NCBI GenBank assembly: GCA_029856435.1
Contig: JAHQXB010000119.1
Span: 1-10,681 of the forward strand
Reading direction: 5' to 3'
DNA: 10,681 bases
Source: Candidatus Jordarchaeia archaeon
GTDB lineage: Archaea > Asgardarchaeota > Jordiarchaeia > Jordiarchaeales > Jordiarchaeaceae
This document shows, piece by piece, positions 66-10,681 of the stretch. Numbering within the stretch: the stretch's first letter is position 1; each line of letters opens with the position of its first letter. The translations under genes were made by a program, and so were the position numbers. A model generated the notes under the pieces. The model was not told the DNA's origin. It did not search any database and saw nothing but the letters and a program-made list of their open reading frames with translations.

Positions 66-164
66 AACCGCTTTAATCACATCAAAAATTATTACCTAAA
101 AACCAAAAGAATTTTTGGACGTGTTCATTGACAGGAAAGATTTTTTTTATGTCTGTAAACTTGA

Positions 165-205
165 TATGTATATATGTCTCAAATTTAAAAAGTGGGAGTT
201 GGTGT
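165..205 (+). promoter_or_regulatory. Putative archaeal promoter and RBS for the 211 gene
   Basis: AT-rich TATATA/AAATTTAAAAA tract (about 173-191) followed by GGGAGTTGGTG just upstream of ATG 211. Confidence 0.4.
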
Positions 206-210
206 TGTGT

Positions 211-1023
211 ATGGTTGGGACTAGAAGGTTTTTCACTGTGAACCAGATTGATGCGACTGGCGCGGGGAGTCCCCATCAGAGGGAGCTGGAGGAGTATAGT
301 GCCAATAAATTTTCTTTGTTTAAGGGTTTGGAGGAGGCTACACTCCGCAGTATAGTGTATGGGGAACTTGGTGCAAGATTGGATAATGTGGGGTTGAATG
401 AGGATTGGACTATTACCATCGAATTTTTCCCCGAAGCAAAAGTGCACATTTCCTATTTCTATTACGGGGATGAGTTTGGGGATGTGGAGGGTGAACTAAA
501 ATTCCTGTTCTCAGGGGAACAAGTCTACATGATTCCCGGGGAGGATATGGTTACTTATACGGGAATAATTTTGGATTTTATTGAACGCAGAATCAAAAAC
601 CAAGAACCCATCGATAAAGGTTATGGCGAAAAGACGGAGCTGATGAAGAAGATTTTGGAACAGCGTAAAGAGCCATTCAATCTCCTGGAGAAGAAAGATG
701 CAGAAGAGCTCGGGAAATTCATTGGCGGAGAAATAACCATAAGGGGTTCAAATTGGAACATAAAAAGGGAAGTGCTCCCCGAAATTTTTGTGGAGGTAAC
801 CTTCGATAAGGGCAAAAATATGTTAGACACATCATATTCGGGTAAAAATCTTACCAAAATAGGGAGATACCACTTAGAGCTGATTGCAACATTCACCATA
901 AACCACATTCTCAGGTACATTGCATTGAGAAACCAAGATAAAAAACTTCCCACTATTTGCTACAAAATGTTTTCCAGACTGTTCACCAAAGAAAAAGGCT
1001 GGAACCATAGGAAAGCATCATAA
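211..1023 (+). CDS. Hypothetical protein with two tandem DUF3786-like domains (about 270 aa)
   Basis: The ORF track starts at TTG 115, but ATG 211 has an SD (GGAG/GGTG) and the upstream extension overlaps promoter-like DNA. FFPEAKVHISYFYYGDEFGDVEGELKFLFS resembles the DUF3786 pattern (LPxxPxxhhhWxGDxEFPxxxxhLF), recognised by eye. An internal repeat is visible: FPEAKVHIS...LFSGE...ILDFIERRI versus LPEIFVEVT...SYSGK...TINHILRYI. Confidence 0.6.
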   Translation: MVGTRRFFTVNQIDATGAGSPHQRELEEYSANKFSLFKGLEEATLRSIVYGELGARLDNVGLNEDWTITIEFFPEAKVHISYFYYGDEFGDVEGELKFLFSGEQVYMIPGEDMVTYTGIILDFIERRIKNQEPIDKGYGEKTELMKKILEQRKEPFNLLEKKDAEELGKFIGGEITIRGSNWNIKREVLPEIFVEVTFDKGKNMLDTSYSGKNLTKIGRYHLELIATFTINHILRYIALRNQDKKLPTICYKMFSRLFTKEKGWNHRKAS

Positions 1024-2019: not shown

Positions 2020-2586
2020 GTGAAGCTACTCCACATACACTCCAGAAACAGAAGAAGGGGACGAAGGCTATATCAGAAATACGCAAGAAGGTGGAGGAGC
2101 CGCGTAAAAAAACTACTTGTGTCTCCTGGCAAAACACCTGGCCACCGCCTTCCCTGCACAGCACTGGTTTGAAAAACCGGAGAAGAAAAAAATGCAAAAG
2201 AAACACCACAAGAAGTGGAACCGCAGGCGGGGGGAGGCCGGCTGGCGGCTACTGGTTCTCCCTGATGAGGGGCTGGGCCCCAGTGGTGGAGGTCAGCCCG
2301 GGGTTACACCTCGAAAAACTGCAGCAGATGCGGGGGGCTGAATAAAGCTCTAAGGAGCCACAGGTTTTTTAGTGTCCCCACTGTGGCTTCAAAGTAGACC
2401 GGTGGTTCAAATGCCCGCATAAACATTTATCACAGGGTGAGAGGAGTTTCCCCACAAAAGGAGTTCAACTTTGTGGGTGGGTTGCCCTTGACGGTGGTGG
2501 AGCAGAGTGACCCCTATGAGCCCGTGAGGGGTGTGGGTGATGTGGTGAAGCCCTGGGTCTACATATGTCTACTTTTGACAGCGTAG
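2020..2586 (+). pseudogene. tnpB: tnpB (IS200/IS605/IS607-family RNA-guided nuclease) pseudogene, N-terminally truncated
   Basis: Stitched translation: VKLLHIH..RRLYQKYARRWRSRVK / YLCLLAKHLATAFPAQHWFEK..KKWNRR..AGWRLLV / SLMRGWAPVVEVSPG / YTSKNCSRCGGLNK / CPHCGFKVDR / NARINIYHRVRG...VVKPWVYICLLLTA*. It shows the RuvC-II E, the YTS-CxxC...CxxC zinc finger and the RuvC-III NAxINI motif. Five frame changes, near 2110, 2258, 2303, 2370 and 2410. Confidence 0.88.
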
Positions 2587-2594
2587 ACTACAAC
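2020..2594 (+). mobile_element. Degenerate tnpB-carrying IS remnant (element A). Right end probably at CAAC 2591-2594; left end not identifiable
   Basis: tnpB remnant plus a subterminal hairpin GTCTAC(2557-2562)...GTAGAC(2583-2588) followed by TA-CAAC. The same arrangement is seen at element B. Host-type sequence (a HEPN gene fragment) begins immediately after. Confidence 0.7.
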
Positions 2595-2951: not shown

Positions 2952-3998
2952 TTAAATTTGGATGCGGAAATATTTTCCATATTTTTTTGTGGCTTTAATC
3001 ATTGTTTTGAAGTTTTCGATTTTGACTGCGTTGTGGATGGAGTTGCTGGAACTTAAAATGTATCCACCTCCATTTGCCGCTTCTTCTATGCATCTTTTAA
3101 CTTCTCTTACTGTGTCATCAATGGTTCCGAGTGGCAGAATGTTGGTTACATCCACATTGCCCACGATGCATATTTTATCTCCAAATTTTTGTTTTACTTC
3201 TCTTAGGCTCATTCCAGCTTGGGGTTCTATGGGGTGCAGTGCATCTATTCCCGTATTCACAATGTCTTCCAGGATAGGCCAGATGTTTCCATCGCAGTGC
3301 TTAATGAAGGGGACTCCCCTCCGGTGAACCTCGTCCACGATTTTTTTAAGGTAGGGGGCAATGAATTCTCGGAAAAGTTTCACCGACATGAACGGTCCAT
3401 GTTTATAGGCGTAGTCATCTCCCGATATGAGGGCGTCTACTCCCAGATCAATCATGGCTTTTGCCAGCTCAATGTTGTAATTTACGGAGGCTTCAATGAT
3501 TCTCCTCGCAAAGCCGGGGTTCTTGTAAAGGTCTATGAGGAAATTGTTTACGCCCCTCATTTGGGAGGGTATCTCGAAGGCGTCGTGGATTCCACCCACA
3601 ACCGCCAACCGGTACTTGTTGTTTTTTATCACCATTCTGAGCCTATCCAGCCTATCATAGTCAAATGGGTCGGGTGGTGAAAAATTTTCAAAATCCTCCT
3701 CGCTATCTATTGTGCCCCTTACATAATAGATGACCTCGTTTTCCTCCACTGACCATATTCTAGCCCAATCATCAATGAAGGACTTCTCATCCAGAGGCTT
3801 CACGGGCCTAAAATTGTCCCAAAAATTTATGCCGTCCAACCCACAGCCACTGTAAACTTCATAAAAGTCCAAAGCGTCTCTGGGAGTCCTGCCCAAAATT
3901 TTCCTAACTATGGGGACATTAATCTCAATCTCGAAAAGAGGGACAGCGTCCGGCTCCTCACCGTAAAGCGCCCTTAAAATCCTCTCTCTAGAATCCAT
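2952..3998 (-). CDS. URO-D/MtaA-CmuA superfamily protein (probable corrinoid-dependent methyltransferase), paralogue 1
   Basis: Start set at ATG 3998 (MDSRERILRAL, GGTG SD) rather than 4022. Family motifs: EEPDAVPLFE, FIDDWARIW, DDYA...GPFMS, KHCDGN, HPIEPQAGM, GNVDV, GGYILSSSNSI. It lacks the RQAGR motif of true HemE. Confidence 0.85.
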   Translation of the reverse strand: MDSRERILRALYGEEPDAVPLFEIEINVPIVRKILGRTPRDALDFYEVYSGCGLDGINFWDNFRPVKPLDEKSFIDDWARIWSVEENEVIYYVRGTIDSEEDFENFSPPDPFDYDRLDRLRMVIKNNKYRLAVVGGIHDAFEIPSQMRGVNNFLIDLYKNPGFARRIIEASVNYNIELAKAMIDLGVDALISGDDYAYKHGPFMSVKLFREFIAPYLKKIVDEVHRRGVPFIKHCDGNIWPILEDIVNTGIDALHPIEPQAGMSLREVKQKFGDKICIVGNVDVTNILPLGTIDDTVREVKRCIEEAANGGGYILSSSNSIHNAVKIENFKTMIKATKKYGKYFRIQI

Positions 3999-4110
3999 CA
4001 ATATACACCACTTCATAGGCAAATTTCACAATTCAATGTTTTCAATAAAACTTACCGAGAACAAGATTTAATACTATTCTCACCCCTCGGTGCCAAGTAT
4101 GTGAAAGTTT

Positions 4111-5190
4111 TTAGTGCCTCGGGTAAACTCCAAACTTTTTAGCTGTTTTTATTTGGGCCAGAAAGTTTTCTGGTTTGCACCAGTCATTAATTTGATGTCC
4201 TGAGCCCAGAAGGTAGCCTCCGCCGGGAGCGGCTGCGTTTATGGCTCTTCTCACTTCTCGGGCGACTTCCTCAGGTGTTCCGAAGGGTAGAAGGTGGGAA
4301 ACGTCAATGTTTCCAACCAAGCAAATTTTTTCTCCCCACTTCTCAGCCACCTCCCCTATGTCCATGCCTGCTTTGGGCTCTAAGGGTTGAATGGCGTCCA
4401 CCCCTGCTTTTATTATGAGATCCATGAGGAGACGGATATCTCCGTCAGAGTGCACCATGAGAAAAGCCCCCTTTTTATGGAATGTGTCAGCCGCCTTTTT
4501 TAGGCAGGGATAAATGAACTGTTCAAAGTGCTTGGGAGAAATCATGGGTCCATGGGTGTAGCCGTAGTCGTCCCAGTCTAGGAGAACCTCCGCTCCCAGA
4601 TCTATGCAGGCTTTCCCCAGCTCTATTAGGAATTTGGTTGAGTCTGCAAGAACCCTTTTGACGAATTGGGGATTTGTGAAAATGTAGCGGAACATGTTCT
4701 CCCAGCCCAGAGCCTCGCCCTGAACTTCCCAAATGGAGCCCACTGCAGCTACTGGGAGTATGCGGTCGCCTGCGGCTTTTACTGCGATTTTAAATTGTTC
4801 AATGCCCCAAGAGTCTAGAGGGTCAAGTCTGGGAAATTCCTCATATTTTTCGGGGGTGGTCAGGTATCCGCCCATGTAGAAGTGGGAAATGTAGCTCGCA
4901 GAAACATTGGCGCTGTAGATTCGCCCCCATGAGTCAACATATCTGTCCTTATCCAATCCTCTAGCGTTTTTAGGATTAAACATTAGAGTGTATACAGTGG
5001 AGCTGTCCAGTCCCAATTTTTCGTAAAGGTCAAACTCTTTTTCCCAGCCTGCGTATATGGAGAGGCACTCTTCGGGTTTCTTATTGAAAATCTTGCCCAG
5101 AACCAGGGGACTAACTGCCAATTCAAAAAGTGGCACTCTGTCCGGTTCTTCATGCATAAGGGCTTTGAGAACTCTTTCACGCGGCTTCAC
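4111..5190 (-). CDS. URO-D/MtaA-CmuA superfamily protein (probable corrinoid-dependent methyltransferase), paralogue 2
   Basis: GTG start with a GGGGTG SD. Motifs: KPRERVLKALMHEEPDRVPLFE, YVDSWGRIY, DDYG...GPMISP, VHSDGD, QPLEPKAGMD, GNIDV, GGGYLLGSGHQI. Clearly paralogous to 2952-3998. Confidence 0.87.
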   Translation of the reverse strand: MKPRERVLKALMHEEPDRVPLFELAVSPLVLGKIFNKKPEECLSIYAGWEKEFDLYEKLGLDSSTVYTLMFNPKNARGLDKDRYVDSWGRIYSANVSASYISHFYMGGYLTTPEKYEEFPRLDPLDSWGIEQFKIAVKAAGDRILPVAAVGSIWEVQGEALGWENMFRYIFTNPQFVKRVLADSTKFLIELGKACIDLGAEVLLDWDDYGYTHGPMISPKHFEQFIYPCLKKAADTFHKKGAFLMVHSDGDIRLLMDLIIKAGVDAIQPLEPKAGMDIGEVAEKWGEKICLVGNIDVSHLLPFGTPEEVAREVRRAINAAAPGGGYLLGSGHQINDWCKPENFLAQIKTAKKFGVYPRH

Positions 5191-5236
5191 ACCTTACACC
5201 CCTTAAACCGTCTACTTAATAATTTTCCACTCTTAA

Positions 5237-5400
5237 ATGAGTACTCATAAACTTATTGTATAACTGTTTTTAAATATAATTCATAAGTTTGATGGTACTC
5301 CCCCAACCAAACATTCTTTTACACTCTTAGCCCTACACGTTTACCATTTTACAAGAAGGAAGAACATTAGCGAAAGAGGTTTCCCATCAAAGTTTACTTG
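5237..5400. promoter_or_regulatory. Divergent promoter region with BRE/TATA-like boxes, a 12-bp palindrome and an imperfect 18-nt inverted repeat
   Basis: ATGAGTACTCAT (5237-5248) is a perfect palindrome. GAGTACTCATAAACTTAT (5239-5256) is nearly the reverse complement of ATAAGTTTGATGGTACTC (5283-5300). A related CCATCAAAGTTTAC lies at about 5384-5397. The region sits between the divergent starts at 5190 and 5501. Confidence 0.5.
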
Positions 5401-5500
5401 AACAAATTGTTAAAATAACCATAGATTGGTGATGGTTTGTGGAAAATAATAAAAGGGGGAATAGTCGAAAAAGTTCTAAAAAGAAATTTGGGGAAGAGTA

Positions 5501-5806
5501 ATGGCGTCTAAACAGAAAATTAGAGTCTTGCAGGGAACGGTTCTCAGTATTGAGAAAACAGGCGAGAAGAAAAAGGATGAAGAAGGAAATGTTTGGGAAA
5601 AGTGTATCTTCAGCCTCGAACTAACCGGCTTTTCGAAAAGAACCCCCCATGAAGAATTGCCATCCGAACTTAAGAGTAAAAAAATTAAGCTTGTCAGGTG
5701 GTGTTGCTTTGACTGGCACTACAAAACAGGAGTCAGAAAAACACTGGAACCAGAAGAGACTGAGGCTGTCTTGAAGAATAAGCCCCTAGACTCAGTATAT
5801 TGGTGA
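5501..5806 (+). CDS. Small hypothetical protein (101 aa), beta-rich, with a WCCFDWH motif
   Basis: Clean ORF with ATG after GGGGAAGAGT. It ends 6 nt before the corrinoid gene and has natural-looking composition. No family recognised. Confidence 0.75.
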   Translation: MASKQKIRVLQGTVLSIEKTGEKKKDEEGNVWEKCIFSLELTGFSKRTPHEELPSELKSKKIKLVRWCCFDWHYKTGVRKTLEPEETEAVLKNKPLDSVYW

Positions 5807-5812
5807 CGTGAA

Positions 5813-6460
5813 ATGGACGAAGCACAAATTTTAGAAAGGTTAAGAGAAAGTGTAGTCAACCTTGATATTGAAGAAGTTAAGAAAGCCTGCCAAGATGCTT
5901 TAGCTCAGGGAATACCTCCAATCAGAGCCATTACGGAAGGAATGGCTAAGGGCATGGATATTGTGGGACAAAAGTATGAGGCAAAAGAATACTTCCTAGC
6001 AGAACTCATCATGTCCGGAGAAGTCATGAAGGAAGGGATGAAAATACTAAGCCCACACCTCAAAGACTCAGACGTTAAAAAAATGGCCAAGGCCGTCGTG
6101 GGCACAGTCAAAGGAGACCTCCACGACATTGGAAAAAACATTTTCGCAACCCTAATGATGGCGGCAGGATTCGAAGTAGTAGACCTCGGAGTAAACATTT
6201 CTCCGGAACAATTCGTGGAAGCAGTGCGCAACCATAAACCCAGAATCCTAGGACTTTCAGCCCTACTCACAGTCACCATGCAAGAATTAGAAAACGTGAT
6301 AAAAGAACTTGAAAAAGCAAATCTGAGAAACCAGGTCAAAGTCATTGTGGGCGGAGCACCACTCACTGAGGAATACGCCAAAAAGATTGGTGCGGACGCC
6401 TACGCTCCAGACGCAGTGGCGGGAGTCAACATATGTAAAAAATGGGTGGAAGGAGAATAA
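5813..6460 (+). CDS. Cobalamin-binding corrinoid protein (MtaC/MtbC/MttC-like methyl carrier)
   Basis: N-terminal cap domain (GMAKGMDIVGQKYEAKEYFLAELIMSGEVM) plus the B12-binding motif GDLHDIGKN...GLSALLT...IVGGAP (DxHxxG-SxL-GG). Confidence 0.95.
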   Translation: MDEAQILERLRESVVNLDIEEVKKACQDALAQGIPPIRAITEGMAKGMDIVGQKYEAKEYFLAELIMSGEVMKEGMKILSPHLKDSDVKKMAKAVVGTVKGDLHDIGKNIFATLMMAAGFEVVDLGVNISPEQFVEAVRNHKPRILGLSALLTVTMQELENVIKELEKANLRNQVKVIVGGAPLTEEYAKKIGADAYAPDAVAGVNICKKWVEGE

Positions 6461-6467
6461 AACTTAG

Positions 6468-8744
6468 GTGTCTGAATTGACCGAAATATACCGTGACAAA
6501 AGTCGCACAATCGAAGAAAGGGTGGAAGACCTCCTATCAAAAATGACCATAGAAGAGAAAGTGGGGCAAATGTCGGGCTTCTTCATGATAACCCCCGACA
6601 TAGCCCTAGAAGCCATAGAAAAATACCATGCAGGAGCCGGAGCCCCATTTCTCCTATGGGAGAAGGCCACCGACCTAACCAACACCGTAAACACTATCCA
6701 GAGCTACGCCTTGGAGAAGACCCGCCTAGGCATACCCCTCCTACTATACACCGATGCTGACCACGGCCACGCCTTCGTTAAGGGAACCACCGTTTTCCCC
6801 CACAACTTGGGCATGGCCTCAACCTGGGACCCAGAATTTTCAAAAAAAGTAGCTGAAGTTTCAGCTAGAGAAACGCGAGCCACAGGCATACACCAGAATC
6901 TCAACCCCGTTTGCGACATTGCCAGAGATCCAAGGTGGGGGAGAACATTTGAAACCTTTGGTGAAAGCCCCTACCTCTGCTCCATTATGGCTGCCGCAAT
7001 GGTGCAGGGCTACCAAGGAGGGGAAGGTTTCATAGTGGACAGCAAACATTTGGCCGCCACAGCTAAGCACTTCCCCGCTTACAGCGCCCCTGAGGGAGGA
7101 GAAGACACCGCACCAGTAGACATCTCAGAGTACACCTTTTACACTGTCCATCTTCCCTCCTTTGAAGCTGCAATAAAGTCTGGAGTCCTATCCATAATGC
7201 CCTGCTACAACGAGATAAATGGGAAGCCAGCGCACGGTTCCTATGAGTACCTCACAGAGCTACTTAGAGGCAAATTGGGGTTTAGAGGAATAGTGGTTTC
7301 GGATTGGGGCGGTGTAGAAATGCTCCACAGATACCATAGGACTGCCGAAGGTTACAAGGACGCTGTGAAACAGGCCGTAGCGGCTGGTCTGGACATTGAC
7401 TCAATTGGAGGAGCCAGATTCTACCAGGCCCTCTTGGAACTGGTCAACAGCGGTGAGATATCTGAGAAGAGGATAGACTTATCGGTGAGGAGAATACTTG
7501 AGGTAAAGTTTAGGTTGGGCCTATTTGAAAAGGTCTATGTGGATCCTGAAGAGACACAAAGAGTTGTGGGAAGTAGCCAGAATAAGGAGTTAGCCCTACA
7601 AGCTTCTAGGAAAAGCATAGTGCTGCTCAAGAATGAGGGCCTCTTACCCTTAAAGAAGGATTTGAACTCCATACTGGTAACTGGGCCGAACGCCGACAAC
7701 TTGGAGGGACTTTTAGGCGGCTGGACAAACCACTTCGGTCCCTGGCCCTCGGCGGTGACCGTTTTGGAAGCCATAAAGGGCAAGGTCTCATCCAAAACCA
7801 AGGTTTCCTATGTGAAGGGCGCAGACTATAATGAGCTGGGGAGCCTAGAGGAAGTAAAGGAGAAGGCTAAGGAGAGCGACGTAGCCATAACTGTCCTTGG
7901 TGAACCAGCCTATATACATGAGTTTTGGAGCTTGGCGGACGCCGCATCAGTTATGAGCTTTGATACTGGTCTGCCCAACGTTGAGCTTACAAAGGAGTTG
8001 AAACAGAAGCTTTTAGCAAGGCTGGACGTATTCCCCTCTCGAGTACTCCTAGAGTTGCCCTATGCGCAGTTGAAGCTGGTTGAGGCGATTCGCGAGGTAG
8101 GCATCCCCATTGTTGCAGTGTTGCTGTTGGGTAGGCCCCTAGCTGTAAAATGGATAGCCGAGAATATACCTGCAATCTTGTTAGCTTTTCACCCGGGCTT
8201 GGAGGGTGGAAGAGCAATAGCCGACGTACTATTCGGAGACTACAATCCCGGAGGAAAATTGCCTGTTTCCATTCCCAGATATGTGGGTCAAATACCAGTA
8301 AGACACAACTTTAAGAGTAGACCCTTCGTTGAGGCTCATCCACCAGCCTATGCTCCGCTCTTCGAATTCGGATATGGTTTAAGCTACACGCGTTTTGAGT
8401 ATAGTGATCTTGAGGTTATCCCCAAAAATGTGGGTGTAGGAGGCAAAGTAAAGGTATCATTAACAGTTAAAAACACTGGCGAAGTGGCTGGAGAGGAGGT
8501 GGTGCAGCTCTATGTTTGTGACGTGTGCAGTTCGCGGGTTACACCCCTCAAAGAGCTAAAAGGATTCACAAAAATATTTTTGAAGCCTGGTGAAAGTCAG
8601 AGAGTTAACCTCCAATTGAACGTAGAAGACCTAGCAGTTTATCAGGGCGGGGGAAGATTCGCTGTGGAGCGTGGCCTATTCAAAATAATGGTTGGAGCCT
8701 CCTGTGAGGACATTAGGCTGGAAGATAGCTTCGAAGTCGTTTAG
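6468..8744 (+). CDS. Glycoside hydrolase family 3 (BglX-like beta-glucosidase/xylosidase) with a C-terminal Fn3-like domain; no signal peptide
   Basis: Motifs: TIEEKVGQM, TRLGIPLL, HG...TVFP, RDPRWGRTFETFGE, AKHF, nucleophile SDW (D codon 7302-7304), SIVLLKN, PGGKLP, LFEFGYGLSYT, EEVVQLY...KELKGFTKI. GTG start 7 nt after the corrinoid stop, with a GGAG upstream. Confidence 0.95.
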   Translation: MSELTEIYRDKSRTIEERVEDLLSKMTIEEKVGQMSGFFMITPDIALEAIEKYHAGAGAPFLLWEKATDLTNTVNTIQSYALEKTRLGIPLLLYTDADHGHAFVKGTTVFPHNLGMASTWDPEFSKKVAEVSARETRATGIHQNLNPVCDIARDPRWGRTFETFGESPYLCSIMAAAMVQGYQGGEGFIVDSKHLAATAKHFPAYSAPEGGEDTAPVDISEYTFYTVHLPSFEAAIKSGVLSIMPCYNEINGKPAHGSYEYLTELLRGKLGFRGIVVSDWGGVEMLHRYHRTAEGYKDAVKQAVAAGLDIDSIGGARFYQALLELVNSGEISEKRIDLSVRRILEVKFRLGLFEKVYVDPEETQRVVGSSQNKELALQASRKSIVLLKNEGLLPLKKDLNSILVTGPNADNLEGLLGGWTNHFGPWPSAVTVLEAIKGKVSSKTKVSYVKGADYNELGSLEEVKEKAKESDVAITVLGEPAYIHEFWSLADAASVMSFDTGLPNVELTKELKQKLLARLDVFPSRVLLELPYAQLKLVEAIREVGIPIVAVLLLGRPLAVKWIAENIPAILLAFHPGLEGGRAIADVLFGDYNPGGKLPVSIPRYVGQIPVRHNFKSRPFVEAHPPAYAPLFEFGYGLSYTRFEYSDLEVIPKNVGVGGKVKVSLTVKNTGEVAGEEVVQLYVCDVCSSRVTPLKELKGFTKIFLKPGESQRVNLQLNVEDLAVYQGGGRFAVERGLFKIMVGASCEDIRLEDSFEVV

Positions 8745-8888: not shown

Positions 8889-9443
8889 TTGTCAAGTTCA
8901 AGGCTTCTTTCGCGTGAGCATGCTGCGCTTGTTATTATTGATGTTCAGGAGAAATTGTGGGCTGTAATGCAGGATAAGGAGAGAATTGTGCAGAACATTT
9001 TGAAGTTGATTGATTTTGCTAGGATAGTGGGGCTTCCTATTATAGTTACTGAGCAGTATCCTAAGGGTTTGGGTCCTACAGTTAAACAGATAAGGGATAG
9101 GCTTCCTAGAATTGTGCCCATTGAAAAGACGGTTTTTGACTGTTTTGGAGCTGAAGGCTTCAGGGAAAAAATAAGGGAGCTTAATGTTTCCACCCTAATT
9201 CTTGTGGGTATCGAGTCGCATGTGTGTGTTACTCAAACCGCGCTATCGGGCTTGGATAACAATTTGAGGGTTTGTGTTGTTTCTGACGCTGTTTCTTCTC
9301 GCACGCGGGAAAACTATCAAATTGGAATTGAGCGGATGAGGGACAGTGGAGCTATAATATCCTCCACGGAGATGCTTATGTTTGAACTTTTAAGGGATGC
9401 TAACACTAGAGAATTTAAGGAAGCTCAAAACCTATTTAAATAA
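8889..9443 (+). CDS. Isochorismatase-family cysteine hydrolase (YcaC/ISOC-like)
   Basis: Catalytic triad pattern: IIDVQE (D), IEKTVFDC (K) and GIESHVCV (C), plus TEQYPKGLGPT. TTG start with a GGAGG SD. Confidence 0.92.
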   Translation: MSSSRLLSREHAALVIIDVQEKLWAVMQDKERIVQNILKLIDFARIVGLPIIVTEQYPKGLGPTVKQIRDRLPRIVPIEKTVFDCFGAEGFREKIRELNVSTLILVGIESHVCVTQTALSGLDNNLRVCVVSDAVSSRTRENYQIGIERMRDSGAIISSTEMLMFELLRDANTREFKEAQNLFK

Positions 9444-9580: not shown

Positions 9581-10276
9581 GTGGAGGAATCTAGCTTTAA
9601 AATGCTCGAGGCAGCTCCTAATCTACAGCCAGATATGAGAGCCATAACACAATTAATCACGGATGGAGTTAAGGCACAAGAAAACGTTTATGGCCCCGTA
9701 TTTACCGCAAAGGTGATAGATTACGCTTTACGGCTAGTTTCTAAACAAATAGGTGAAGAAAAGCCCGAAGGTATTACAAACTTAGACCAGTTGGCGGAAT
9801 ATCTGCTCTCAAAAGAATGTAAGCTTCCCCCCCACTGGATATTGCTTTGGGCCGTGTTTAAAACTGAAAAAAAGTTCGAAGGCTATCAGGGGGCGGGAAT
9901 GCGGCTTATGGACATGGGGATTTCCAGAAAAGTGATGGAATCAACCATTGATCTGGAAGGTGACTTATCCGATGTGGGGAGTGTTCTTTCAAAGCTTCGC
10001 CGGAGCACAATTGAAATGAAGGTAGCCCCCCTCAAAATGGGGTACAAGGAAAATGAAGATGGAAGCATAAGTGTACTCCACCAAGATTGTTACTTTTTGG
10101 ATGCATGCCAGCTAGCTTTGAATGAGGGCCTACTAAAAAGAGCAGATGGAAGAATGGTGTGCGGTGTATTCTCACTTGTACGCCAATATCTGAAAAGGGC
10201 TACAGGCCGCGAGTGGGACTATACTATCTCCATATTTGATAAACCAAATTGTGTAGCCAAATTCTTCACAGTTTAA
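9581..10276 (+). CDS. Hypothetical protein with a C-terminal V4R-like Cys-rich domain
   Basis: GTG start with a GGTG SD. The C-terminus HQDCYFLDAC...MVCG...PNCV has four Cys spaced as in V4R/methanogen-output-type small-molecule-binding domains, recognised by eye. Confidence 0.6.
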   Translation: MEESSFKMLEAAPNLQPDMRAITQLITDGVKAQENVYGPVFTAKVIDYALRLVSKQIGEEKPEGITNLDQLAEYLLSKECKLPPHWILLWAVFKTEKKFEGYQGAGMRLMDMGISRKVMESTIDLEGDLSDVGSVLSKLRRSTIEMKVAPLKMGYKENEDGSISVLHQDCYFLDACQLALNEGLLKRADGRMVCGVFSLVRQYLKRATGREWDYTISIFDKPNCVAKFFTV

Positions 10277-10373: not shown

Positions 10374-10650
10374 ATCCAAAAACACCTTTTTATGTTGGGG
10401 TTCTACCCTATGTAGAAATTCATAGAATTACATAGGAGTTGGGGCTTCACAGTATCATGCGGCGGCCTCGCGAGTTCATCAGCCGCCTTCCACTCCACCC
10501 CGCTCAGGGTGAACCCGCTCCCCACCTCCACGAATCCACGTCTCCGCTTCTTCACCGACCACTTCTCCTGCGGATGTTGTCGCCAACGCCGTGAGGAGTG
10601 CAGGAGAGGCCTCACGATCGAGCGAAAGAACGTGGTCGGGTGGGGAGAAA
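10374..10650 (-). ncRNA. Predicted TnpB omegaRNA, element B, with an enlarged structured domain
   Basis: Dense perfect stems (plus-strand coordinates): 10518-10526/10639-10647 (9 bp), 10555-10562/10632-10639 (8 bp), 10564-10571/10600-10607 (8 bp), 10590-10596/10610-10616 (7 bp), 10461-10466/10482-10487 (6 bp). Boundaries are inferred. Confidence 0.65.
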
Positions 10651-10681
10651 GACCCTCCATCCTTAGGTGAAGGTTTATGGC
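10394..10681 (-). mobile_element. Right end of a tnpB-carrying IS200/IS605/IS607-family element (element B)
   Basis: On the minus strand: TTCTAC-ATAGG-GTAGAA hairpin (10417-10401), then CCC-CAAC (ending at 10394), mirroring element A. Low-complexity host intergenic DNA follows. Confidence 0.7.
10403..10681 (-). CDS. tnpB: 3' end of a tnpB gene (element B); 5' part lies beyond the window
   Basis: The frame runs from the window edge as AINLHLRMEGLSP...GSGFTLSGVEWKAADELARPPHDTVKPQLLCNSMNFYIG*. AINL is the end of the RuvC-III NAxINh motif, and the tail aligns with element A (INIYHRVRGVSP...GGLPLTVVEQSDPYEPVR...DVVKP). The ORF-track start at 10660 is internal. Confidence 0.8.
   Translation of the reverse strand, partial: AINLHLRMEGLSPHPTTFFRSIVRPLLHSSRRWRQHPQEKWSVKKRRRGFVEVGSGFTLSGVEWKAADELARPPHDTVKPQLLCNSMNFYIG

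What the first reader, a model, noticed from the sequence alone, without database searches (positions are those of the whole stretch)
2510..2553. Covarying kink-loop in both tnpB right ends: a possible L7Ae-bound omegaRNA
Seen in element A: stem ACCCC(2510-2514), bulge TAT, GA(2518-2519), 6 nt, GA(2526-2527), stem GGGGT(2528-2532). Seen in element B (minus strand, 10487 to 10461): stem GGCGGCT, bulge GAT, GA, 6 nt, GA, stem GGCCGCC. The geometry is identical while the stem sequences differ completely, so pairing is conserved rather than sequence. Both then carry a second GA-T-N4-T-GA-AGCCC motif (A: GATGTGGTGAAGCCC at 2539-2553; B: GATACTGTGAAGCCC), resembling box C'/D' elements with a U-U pair. 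Established: a 3-nt bulge plus tandem G.A pairs defines k-turns/k-loops, which are bound by archaeal L7Ae. Inference: this TnpB clade's guide RNA may recruit host L7Ae as an RNP subunit or stabiliser. The conserved tail residues (E-x-x-R and D-x-V-K-P) may be a by-product of RNA constraint.
Basis: partly seen in the sequence, partly recalled or inferred. Interest (0 to 1): 0.78.

Follow-up and report, generated by a model that had tools for sequence, protein, structure and literature searches.

The report
Kink-turn arm of archaeal TnpB guide RNA
The small bent-RNA motif is real and is one of two or three conserved kink-turns in the guide RNA of a large archaeal family of TnpB nucleases. It probably docks the host protein L7Ae, as older experiments on similar Pyrococcus RNAs suggest, but that binding was not tested here.

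Summary
Observation confirmed. Both hairpins lie exactly where stated.

The same hairpin (6-8 bp stem, 3-nt bulge ending in U, GA, 5-6 nt loop, GA, stem) sits at the same place in 72 of 80 related tnpB loci from many archaeal phyla. More than 15 different stem sequences occur. Both GA dinucleotides are invariant (66/66).

Synonymous sites are frozen inside the motif but vary freely in the catalytic RuvC-III codons. The constraint is therefore on the RNA, not the protein.

It is not a local C'/D'-like hairpin. Its second GA plus AGCCC pairs with the invariant upstream GGGGYG-GA to form a classical kink-turn (Kt-2), supported by five covarying pair types. Its first GA forms a third tandem-GA kink (Kt-3). 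Together they make a 64-nt arm: H_a / Kt-2 / H_b / Kt-3 / stem 1 / Kt-1.

L7Ae binding is untested here but plausible. The host encodes L7Ae. Phok et al. 2011 showed L7Ae binding to Pyrococcus RNAs from OrfB (TnpB) 3' ends, including a K-loop of identical geometry.

This family is absent from Rfam. This scan noted kink-turns in archaeal TnpB guide RNAs before, on other DNA.

The parts
2068..2565 (+). Element A: 5'-truncated, frameshifted remnant of tnpB (C-terminal third only)
   Evidence: tblastn with intact Freyarchaeota and Borrarchaeota TnpBs covers only residues ~231-430. Three-frame translation shows frame breaks.
2470..2594 (+). Element A omegaRNA scaffold (5' GGGU/CCC region, 64-nt kink-turn arm, terminal hairpin, ...ACAAC right end)
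   Evidence: Alignment A2. Conservation among copies stops after ...AAC.
2494..2557 (+). Element A 64-nt kink-turn arm. H_a 2494-2498/2550-2554. Kt-2 GA 2500-2501 and GGT-GA 2544-2548. H_b 2502-2504/2541-2543. Kt-3 GA 2505-2506 and GGT-GA 2536-2540. Slightly decayed: G>T at 2495.
   Evidence: A3. Model R1 scores it 60.9 bits.
2510..2532 (+).
2556..2589 (+). Element A terminal hairpin (GTCTAC...GTAGAC) before the right end
   Evidence: The helix covaries across loci, judged by eye in A2.
10403..10681 (-). Element B: C-terminal 92 codons of tnpB, cut by the contig end. The stop codon TAG is at 10405-10403.
10438..10501 (-). Element B 64-nt kink-turn arm. H_a 10501-10497/10445-10441. Kt-2 GA 10495-10494 and TGT-GA 10451-10447. 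H_b 10493-10491/10454-10452. Kt-3 GA 10490-10489 and CAT-GA 10459-10455.
   Evidence: A3. R1 scores it 80.5 bits.
10461..10487 (-). Kt-1 of element B: apical kink-turn/K-loop hairpin (GGCGGCT-GAT-GA-ACTCGC-GA-GGCCGCC)
10400..10436 (-). Element B terminal hairpin (CCTATGTA...TACATAGG) and right end ...GTAGAAC. The guide region follows from 10399 downward.
   Evidence: Copies diverge after GAAC.

Best explanation
Shown: the motif is the apical kink-turn (Kt-1, a K-loop) of the omegaRNA (guide RNA) encoded across the 3' end of tnpB in a large, apparently archaea-only TnpB clade.

It caps a 64-nt arm that reads: helix H_a, classical kink-turn Kt-2, helix H_b of 3-4 bp, a third tandem-GA kink Kt-3, stem 1, then Kt-1.

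The arm lies between a conserved 5' GGGU/CCC region and a variable terminal hairpin that ends in ...GAAC or ...AAAC. The guide follows directly.

Inferred: in the cell the kink-turns are bound by the abundant host protein L7Ae, with one to three copies per RNA. L7Ae would lock the kinks, stabilise the RNA against heat and nucleases, and shape the scaffold that TnpB holds. The working particle would then be TnpB plus omegaRNA plus L7Ae.

The conserved C-terminal tail residues of TnpB are largely a read-out of this RNA constraint.
For: - Position and anatomy are verified.
- The same hairpin sits at a fixed offset after the RuvC-III motif in about 50 loci, with more than 15 different stems.
- Covariation: 91.7% of cells paired and 10/15 pairs with double changes. 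Far clade 97.4%. 68 distinct sequences give 89.5% and 218 double-change cells.
- Core nucleotides: Kt-1 GA/GA 66/66 and L3 = U 65/66. Kt-2 1b G 68/68 and L3 = U 67/68.
- The 4b-4n pair of Kt-2 shows C-G 23, A-U 10, G-C 7, U.G 5, U-A 3. The rival hairpin pairs only 16/50 at that column.
- RNA-level selection: bulge codon NNT 46/46, Leu CTC 36/36, next codon NNG 46/46 while the amino acid varies, Arg AGR 46/46. Control RuvC-III codons vary freely.
- The host has an L7Ae gene.
- Precedent: P. abyssi sRkB, sRkC and sRk52 match sense 3' ends of OrfB genes and bind L7Ae (EMSA; for sRkB also an RNase T1 footprint; GA mutations of its two K-turns abolished the shift, reported as data not shown). The sRk52 K-loop is CCAGCC-GAU-GA-N6-GA-GGCUGG and the RNA ends ...CAGAAC.
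- An apical K-loop cannot orient two helices, so its strict conservation argues for a protein-binding site.
Against: - No binding, expression or activity data exist for this family.
- Three of about 11 B-type copies in this genome carry GG instead of GA at Kt-1.
- The number of kink-turns is not fixed. Sulfolobus ISSis5 lacks Kt-1, and Methanocaldococcus pFS01 has a deviant Kt-2.
- A kink-turn-like bulge is claimed in the bacterial ISDra2 omegaRNA, which works without L7Ae.
- Sulfolobus TnpBs of other families are active when purified from E. coli.
- Kt-3 shares its 3-bp helix with Kt-2, so simultaneous occupancy by L7Ae may clash sterically.
Confidence: 0.6

Rival explanations
1. The kink-turns are intrinsic architectural elements of the omegaRNA, recognised or used only by TnpB. 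L7Ae plays no functional part, or at most binds incidentally.
For: - A kink-turn-like UGC bulge in stem 3a of the bacterial ISDra2 omegaRNA is reported to matter for activity without L7Ae.
- That bulge lies at -42 to -40 from the guide. Kt-2 here lies at about -50, a similar position.
- Archaeal TnpBs of other families work in E. coli.
- RAGATH-18 RNAs of bacterial IS607 TnpBs carry a possible kink-turn.
Against: - The clade was found only in archaea, all of which have L7Ae.
- Homologous or analogous Pyrococcus RNAs do bind L7Ae.
- The apical Kt-1 has no second helix to orient, yet it is the most conserved element.
Confidence: 0.3
2. L7Ae binding to the arm acts on the tnpB mRNA rather than on the mature guide. 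It would slow translation of the tail or mark the 3' part for processing into omegaRNA. This is compatible with the best explanation.
For: - The whole arm lies inside the last ~70 codons of the ORF.
- L7Ae is reported to regulate translation through kink-turns in mRNAs (title of the paper).
Against: - No data exist for 3'-CDS kink-turns.
- Gene-less and solo right ends keep the arm.
Confidence: 0.1
3. The conservation reflects a functional TnpB C-terminal peptide (DELVR...D.VKP), and the stems are coincidental.
For: The tail motif is conserved in about 100 of 120 listed homologues.
Against: - Third codon positions are invariant although the same genes use all synonymous codons elsewhere.
- Nucleotides are conserved where the amino acid varies (R/Q/T/W/L/V, Y/D/H/G/N/R, V/M/L/A).
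- Stem codons change amino acid while keeping pairing.
Confidence: 0.02
4. The region is a box C/D-type methylation guide RNA embedded in the transposon end.
For: The bulged strands read like C boxes (GAUGAAC, UAUGAUG) and the opposite strands like weak D boxes (GUGA).
Against: - The strands between the kinks pair with each other (H_b, stem 1), leaving no antisense spacer.
- There is no CUGA D box.
- Rfam gives no hit.
Confidence: 0.02

Closest known systems
Pyrococcus abyssi sRk52/sRk48 and sRkB/sRkC (Phok et al. 2011, PMC3124441); Sulfolobus transposase-linked L7Ae-binding sRNAs (Zago et al. 2005, as cited there)
   Same: - These are sense RNAs from the 3' ends of OrfB (TnpB) genes or their orphan copies.
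- sRk52 has an apical K-loop of identical geometry: 6-bp stem, GAU, GA, N6, GA, stem.
- It ends in ...CAGAAC, like the far clade here.
- sRkB has two kink-turns.
- L7Ae binding was shown in vitro.
   Different: - They were described before omegaRNAs were known, so they were not read as TnpB guides.
- The flanking sequence differs. There is no GGGGYG-GA / U-GA-AGCCCC kink-turn and no three kinks in series.
- Homology to the present RNA family could not be tested with a model because no Thermococcales DNA could be fetched.
TnpB omegaRNA / reRNA of IS200/IS605 and IS607 elements (ISDra2 type; sotRNAs of IS1341-type tnpB)
   Same: - The RNA overlaps the tnpB 3' end and runs to the right end.
- A conserved scaffold is followed by a variable guide.
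- The partner protein carries the Cas12f1-like TNB domain.
   Different: - There is no match to any Rfam omegaRNA family.
- The scaffold is dominated by a 64-nt multi-kink-turn arm.
- The ORF runs almost to the right end, so about 85 tail codons are scaffold.
Apical K-turn/K-loops of archaeal H/ACA and box C'/D' motifs (own knowledge; Nolivos 2005 as cited)
   Same: They have a canonical stem, a 3-nt bulge ending in U, and tandem GA pairs closed by a short loop. They are bound by L7Ae.
   Different: The context is a transposon guide RNA. There are no pseudouridylation pockets or methylation guide spacers.
Kt-7-type classical kink-turn
   Same: Kt-2 has a C helix, a 3-nt bulge, G.A and A.G pairs, a 3b.3n pair of A.G, and then a Watson-Crick NC helix.
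   Different: Its 3-bp C helix doubles as the NC helix of the neighbouring Kt-3. I do not know of such sharing in other RNAs.

Membership tests
Kink-turn / K-loop RNA motif | Canonical (C) helix of Watson-Crick pairs next to the bulge | tested here: met
   Stem 1 is 93.9-96.6% paired, and 5 of its 7 pairs show compensatory changes in both the near-clade and 68-sequence alignments (3 of the 5 inner pairs tested in the far clade). H_b has 2-3 covarying pairs.
Kink-turn / K-loop RNA motif | Three-nucleotide bulge 5' of the GA | tested here: met
   The bulge is always 3 nt. L3 = U in 65/66 (Kt-1) and 67/68 (Kt-2).
Kink-turn / K-loop RNA motif | Tandem G.A / A.G pairs | tested here: met
   This is met at sequence level. 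Kt-1 is 66/66 on both strands. Kt-2 has G 68/68, A 61/68, A 66/68, G 58/68. The sheared geometry itself is not testable here.
Kink-turn / K-loop RNA motif | Non-canonical (NC) helix continuing after the GA pairs | tested here: met
   In Kt-2, 3b.3n is A.G and is followed by 4-5 Watson-Crick pairs with five pair types at 4b-4n. In Kt-1 the NC helix is replaced by a 5-6 nt loop, which is the K-loop form.
Kink-turn / K-loop RNA motif | Sharp kink with A-minor contacts | not testable with these tools
   This needs a structure or FRET.
TnpB omegaRNA | Encoded across the tnpB 3' end up to the right end, with a conserved scaffold and then a variable guide | tested here: met
   The TNB domain is and RuvC-III lies upstream.
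TnpB omegaRNA | Transcribed, processed and bound by TnpB | not testable with these tools
   There are no transcript data for this MAG.
L7Ae-bound archaeal RNAs | Host encodes L7Ae | tested here: met
   PF01248 scores 106.7 bits on a 123-aa open frame at C73:13591-13869.
L7Ae-bound archaeal RNAs | Direct binding of L7Ae that depends on the GA pairs | not testable with these tools
   The only support is precedent in Pyrococcus RNAs.
Box C/D sRNA | C (RUGAUGA) and D (CUGA) boxes with 10-12 nt antisense spacers | tested here: not met
   There is no CUGA. The inter-kink strands pair with each other. Rfam gives no hit.
Any Rfam 15 family (IS605-orfB-I/II, HgcC, HEARO and others) | Covariance-model match | tested here: not met
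   There are 0 matches at E <= 1 over the window.

The most novel reading that the evidence does not exclude
Host L7Ae is a functional, possibly obligatory, third subunit of an archaeal TnpB-omegaRNA nuclease. The multi-kink-turn arm would be a dedicated platform for up to three L7Ae copies. OMEGA nucleases in archaea would then be built like sno-type RNPs and could fail or misfold in hosts that lack L7Ae.
Probability: 0.3. Interest if true: 0.8.

Novelty: new variant of a known kind. Interest (0 to 1): 0.6.

Why it matters
TnpB is the ancestor of Cas12 and is being developed as a compact genome editor. So far its particle is treated as two components.

A whole archaeal clade of its guide RNAs carries two or three strictly conserved kink-turns. 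Related RNAs bind L7Ae. This suggests a host protein may be part of the particle.

If so, it would explain why some archaeal TnpBs might not work heterologously. It would also offer a natural handle, the L7Ae/K-turn pair, for tethering effectors. And it would give new meaning to the 2005-2011 reports of L7Ae-bound 'transposase sRNAs'.

The locus is also a clean example of protein residues conserved only because the RNA they overlap is constrained.

Tried and rejected
- Rfam scan of the window at E <= 1 gave nothing.
- Local C'/D'-like hairpin with a U-U pair for the second motif: rejected, because columns 9-11 covary with 48-50.
- Alternative hairpin UUCACCCU/GGGGNGGA, which the MFE fold prefers: rejected, because its key pair is matched in only 16/50 sequences against 48/50 for H_a.
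- Upstream GGGU pairing with NCCC: no covariation.
- Single-sequence MFE folding is uninformative, with z = -2.06 for B and -0.10 for A.
- The L7Ae RIP-seq paper of Daume 2017 does not mention transposons.
- The studied Sulfolobus TnpB7 has a different right end (TTCAC), so it says nothing about this family.
- No intact tnpB of the A, B or C78 families was found in this MAG. Copies sit at contig ends or are decayed.

Full report
**Observation**

- Element A (+): ACCCC 2510-2514 / TAT / GA / GCCCGT / GA / GGGGT 2528-2532.
- Element B (-): GGCGGCT 10487-10481 / GAT / GA / ACTCGC / GA / GGCCGCC to 10461.

The bare pattern is common. With a stem of at least 5 bp and a 4-8 nt loop, it occurs 1266 times in the genome and 7 times in this window. 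One instance therefore proves nothing. The weight lies in the comparison with homologues.

**Context**

The window is contig C86 of a 3.54-Mb, 181-contig MAG. It shares a genus with a 3.6-Mb single-contig genome that is probably the Freyarchaeota chromosome CP147778.
- Element A is a 5'-truncated, frameshifted remnant holding only the last third of tnpB, at 2068-2565.
- Element B is cut by the contig end, leaving 92 C-terminal codons.
- The genome holds 26 copies of the arm described below, in three sequence families (A, B and a C78/C95 type). Most sit at contig ends or are decayed.
- The genome also encodes L7Ae.

**Homologues**

An intact relative is the 388-aa TnpB of a Borrarchaeota MAG. 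It recovered 455 proteins. Their tails share TGAE.K..[DN]EL[VA]R.L.D..KPQ.

A profile scan of one genome per species returned 80 loci. They came from:
- Asgard lineages
- Methanoperedens
- Methanosuratincola
- Marsarchaeota
- Nitrososphaeria
- Bathyarchaeota
- Hadesarchaea
- Archaeoglobaceae
- Thermoplasmatales
- Thermoproteota, including Sulfolobales

All 80 are archaeal. Among 72,556 plasmids, only two matched, and both were archaeal IS607-type elements.

About 50 loci carry [6-8 bp stem]-[G/A/U]AU-GA-[ACYCGY or a 5-nt loop]-GA-[stem] at a fixed offset after the RuvC-III motif. More than 15 different stem sequences occur.

| Alignment | Cells paired | Pairs with compensatory change |
|---|---|---|
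| 31 near-clade arms, gap-free (slid controls 39-51%) | 91.7% | 10 of 15 overall; 5 of 7 in stem 1 |
| 18 far-clade arms | 97.4% | 6 of 13 |
| Model-based, 68 distinct sequences | 89.5% | 218 double-change cells |

Both GA dinucleotides are present in 66/66 sequences, and the last bulge base is U in 65/66.

**RNA constraint or protein constraint?**

In the strictly conserved RuvC-III codons of the same genes, synonymous sites vary freely. Ala uses GCC 17, GCA 14, GCT 11, GCG 7. Asn uses AAC 38, AAT 11.

Inside Kt-1 the picture is different:
- The bulge codon ends in T in 46/46.
- Leu is CTC in 36/36.
- The next codon ends in G in 46/46, although it encodes V, A, K, S, E or M.
- Arg is AGR in 46/46.

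The same holds for the other kinks:
- Columns 10-12 encode R/Q/T/W/L/V but end in G in 27/28.
- Columns 43-45 encode Y/D/H/G/N/R but end in T in 28/28.
- Columns 52-54 encode V/M/L/A but end in G in 28/28.

The conserved tail residues E, R, D, V, K and P each map onto a kink-turn core nucleotide.

**The second motif, reinterpreted**

GA-U-N4-U-GA-AGCCC is not a local hairpin.

Its second GA plus AGCCC(C) pairs with the invariant upstream GGGGYG-GA. This forms a classical kink-turn, Kt-2.
- Bulged strand: 5'-[C helix NNN]-[NNU]-GA-A-[NCCCC].
- Opposite strand: 5'-[GGGGN]-G-GA-[NNN].
- The 3b.3n pair is A.G, as in Kt-7.
- The first Watson-Crick pair of its NC helix shows C-G 23, A-U 10, G-C 7, U.G 5, U-A 3, so 48/50 are paired.
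- The competing hairpin that MFE folding prefers pairs only 16/50 at that column.

The 3-4 bp helix H_b between the kinks covaries: GCG/UGC, GUG/UAC, GCA/UGU, and GGCU/GGCU or GCGU/GCGU in the far clade.

- It is near-invariant in the near clade.
- In the far clade its bulge lies on the 5' strand. It is complete only in some members, such as L118 and L127, and degenerate in Jordarchaeia.

The arm is 64 nt long in both clades.

**Wider variation**

- Sulfolobus islandicus ISSis5 on pYN01 keeps Kt-2 and the middle kink but has a plain apical hairpin.
- Methanocaldococcus pFS01 keeps Kt-1 with a 5-nt loop and has a deviant Kt-2.
- A Thermococcus kodakarensis TnpB is 36% identical to the Borrarchaeota protein. 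Its tail LPNEPRGEL...VMKPK implies the same arm.
- Within Asgard archaea, the model found the arm in 15 of 151 sampled genomes. That is patchy, as expected of a mobile element.

**What is known**

No Rfam family matches. No paper in the library links TnpB with L7Ae or with natural archaeal kink-turns.

Phok et al. 2011 showed that P. abyssi sRkB, sRkC and sRk52 have these properties:
- They match the sense 3' ends of orphan OrfB genes.
- They bind recombinant L7Ae, shown by gel shift and, for sRkB, by an RNase T1 footprint.
- Binding is lost in GA mutants (reported as data not shown).

They also cite L7Ae-bound transposase-linked sRNAs in Sulfolobus. Their supplementary alignment shows the sRk52 K-loop as CCAGCC-GAU-GA-AGACGA-GA-GGCUGG, with the RNA ending in ...CCAGAAC. 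That is the same geometry as Kt-1 and the same 3' end as the far clade.

On the other side, a 2026 paper reports a kink-turn-like bulge in stem 3a of the bacterial ISDra2 omegaRNA, 40-42 nt from the guide, that matters without L7Ae. Sulfolobus TnpBs of other families are active when purified from E. coli.

**Mechanism**

Shown: a conserved, RNA-constrained arm with two or three kink-turns in the guide-RNA scaffold.

Inferred: L7Ae occupies these sites in vivo and stabilises or shapes the RNP.

The strongest argument beyond precedent is that an apical K-loop cannot orient helices, yet it is the most conserved element. That fits a protein-docking site. Whether L7Ae is needed for activity is open. 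I put binding in vivo at about 0.6 and dependence at about 0.3.

**Verdict**

- The kink-turn reading is supported and extended.
- The C'/D' reading of the second motif is replaced.
- The L7Ae idea is plausible but already foreshadowed by experiment.

This scan noted kink-turns in archaeal TnpB guide RNAs before, on other DNA. That does not change the scores.

Noticed in passing
window 10518-10647 (-): Element B carries about 110 extra nt between the RuvC-III codons and the GGGUUCACCC region compared with most relatives. The tail reads ...SPHPTTFFRSIVRPLLHSSRRWRQHPQEKWSVKKRRRGF....
   Followed up: no
L072-L151, just 3' of the right end; window 10399-10397: In most loci the flank after ...GAAC/AAAC starts with CC(C/T). 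At least one B copy (C79) has ACTT instead, so CC is not part of the element. This may reflect a target-site or TAM-linked preference.
   Followed up: partly
G000 C37:16863-16926, C72:12086-12149, C79:307-370: Three B-family copies share GA>GG at position 2b of Kt-1 (GATGGACTCGCGAGG). They are either a decaying subfamily or a tolerated variant.
   Followed up: partly
G000 C118:1067-1126, C129:23736-23794, C60:11453-11516, C51:113-185: Solo, decayed right-end fragments with the arm lie next to unrelated host genes and have no tnpB.
   Followed up: partly
L184 (S. islandicus pYN01) 1750-1830; L185 (Methanocaldococcus pFS01) 1750-1850: IS607-type relatives carry different sets of kinks. ISSis5 has Kt-2 plus a middle kink but a plain apical hairpin. 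pFS01 has Kt-1 with a 5-nt loop and AA/GC in place of the Kt-2 GA pairs.
   Followed up: partly
window 2952-6460: Two URO-D/MtaA-like genes on the - strand (2952-4022, 4111-5190) sit beside a B12-binding corrinoid protein gene (5813-6460, +). This looks like a methyltransferase system. A GH3 glycosidase (6468-8744) and an isochorismatase (8889-9443) follow.
   Followed up: partly
window 115-1023 (+) and 9581-10276 (+): Open frames of 302 and 231 aa have no Pfam match.
   Followed up: no
protein P0029: One family member with the full kink-turn tail is labelled 'candidate division Zixibacteria bacterium' on a 7-kb contig. This is probably mis-binning. It is the only non-archaeal label seen.
   Followed up: no
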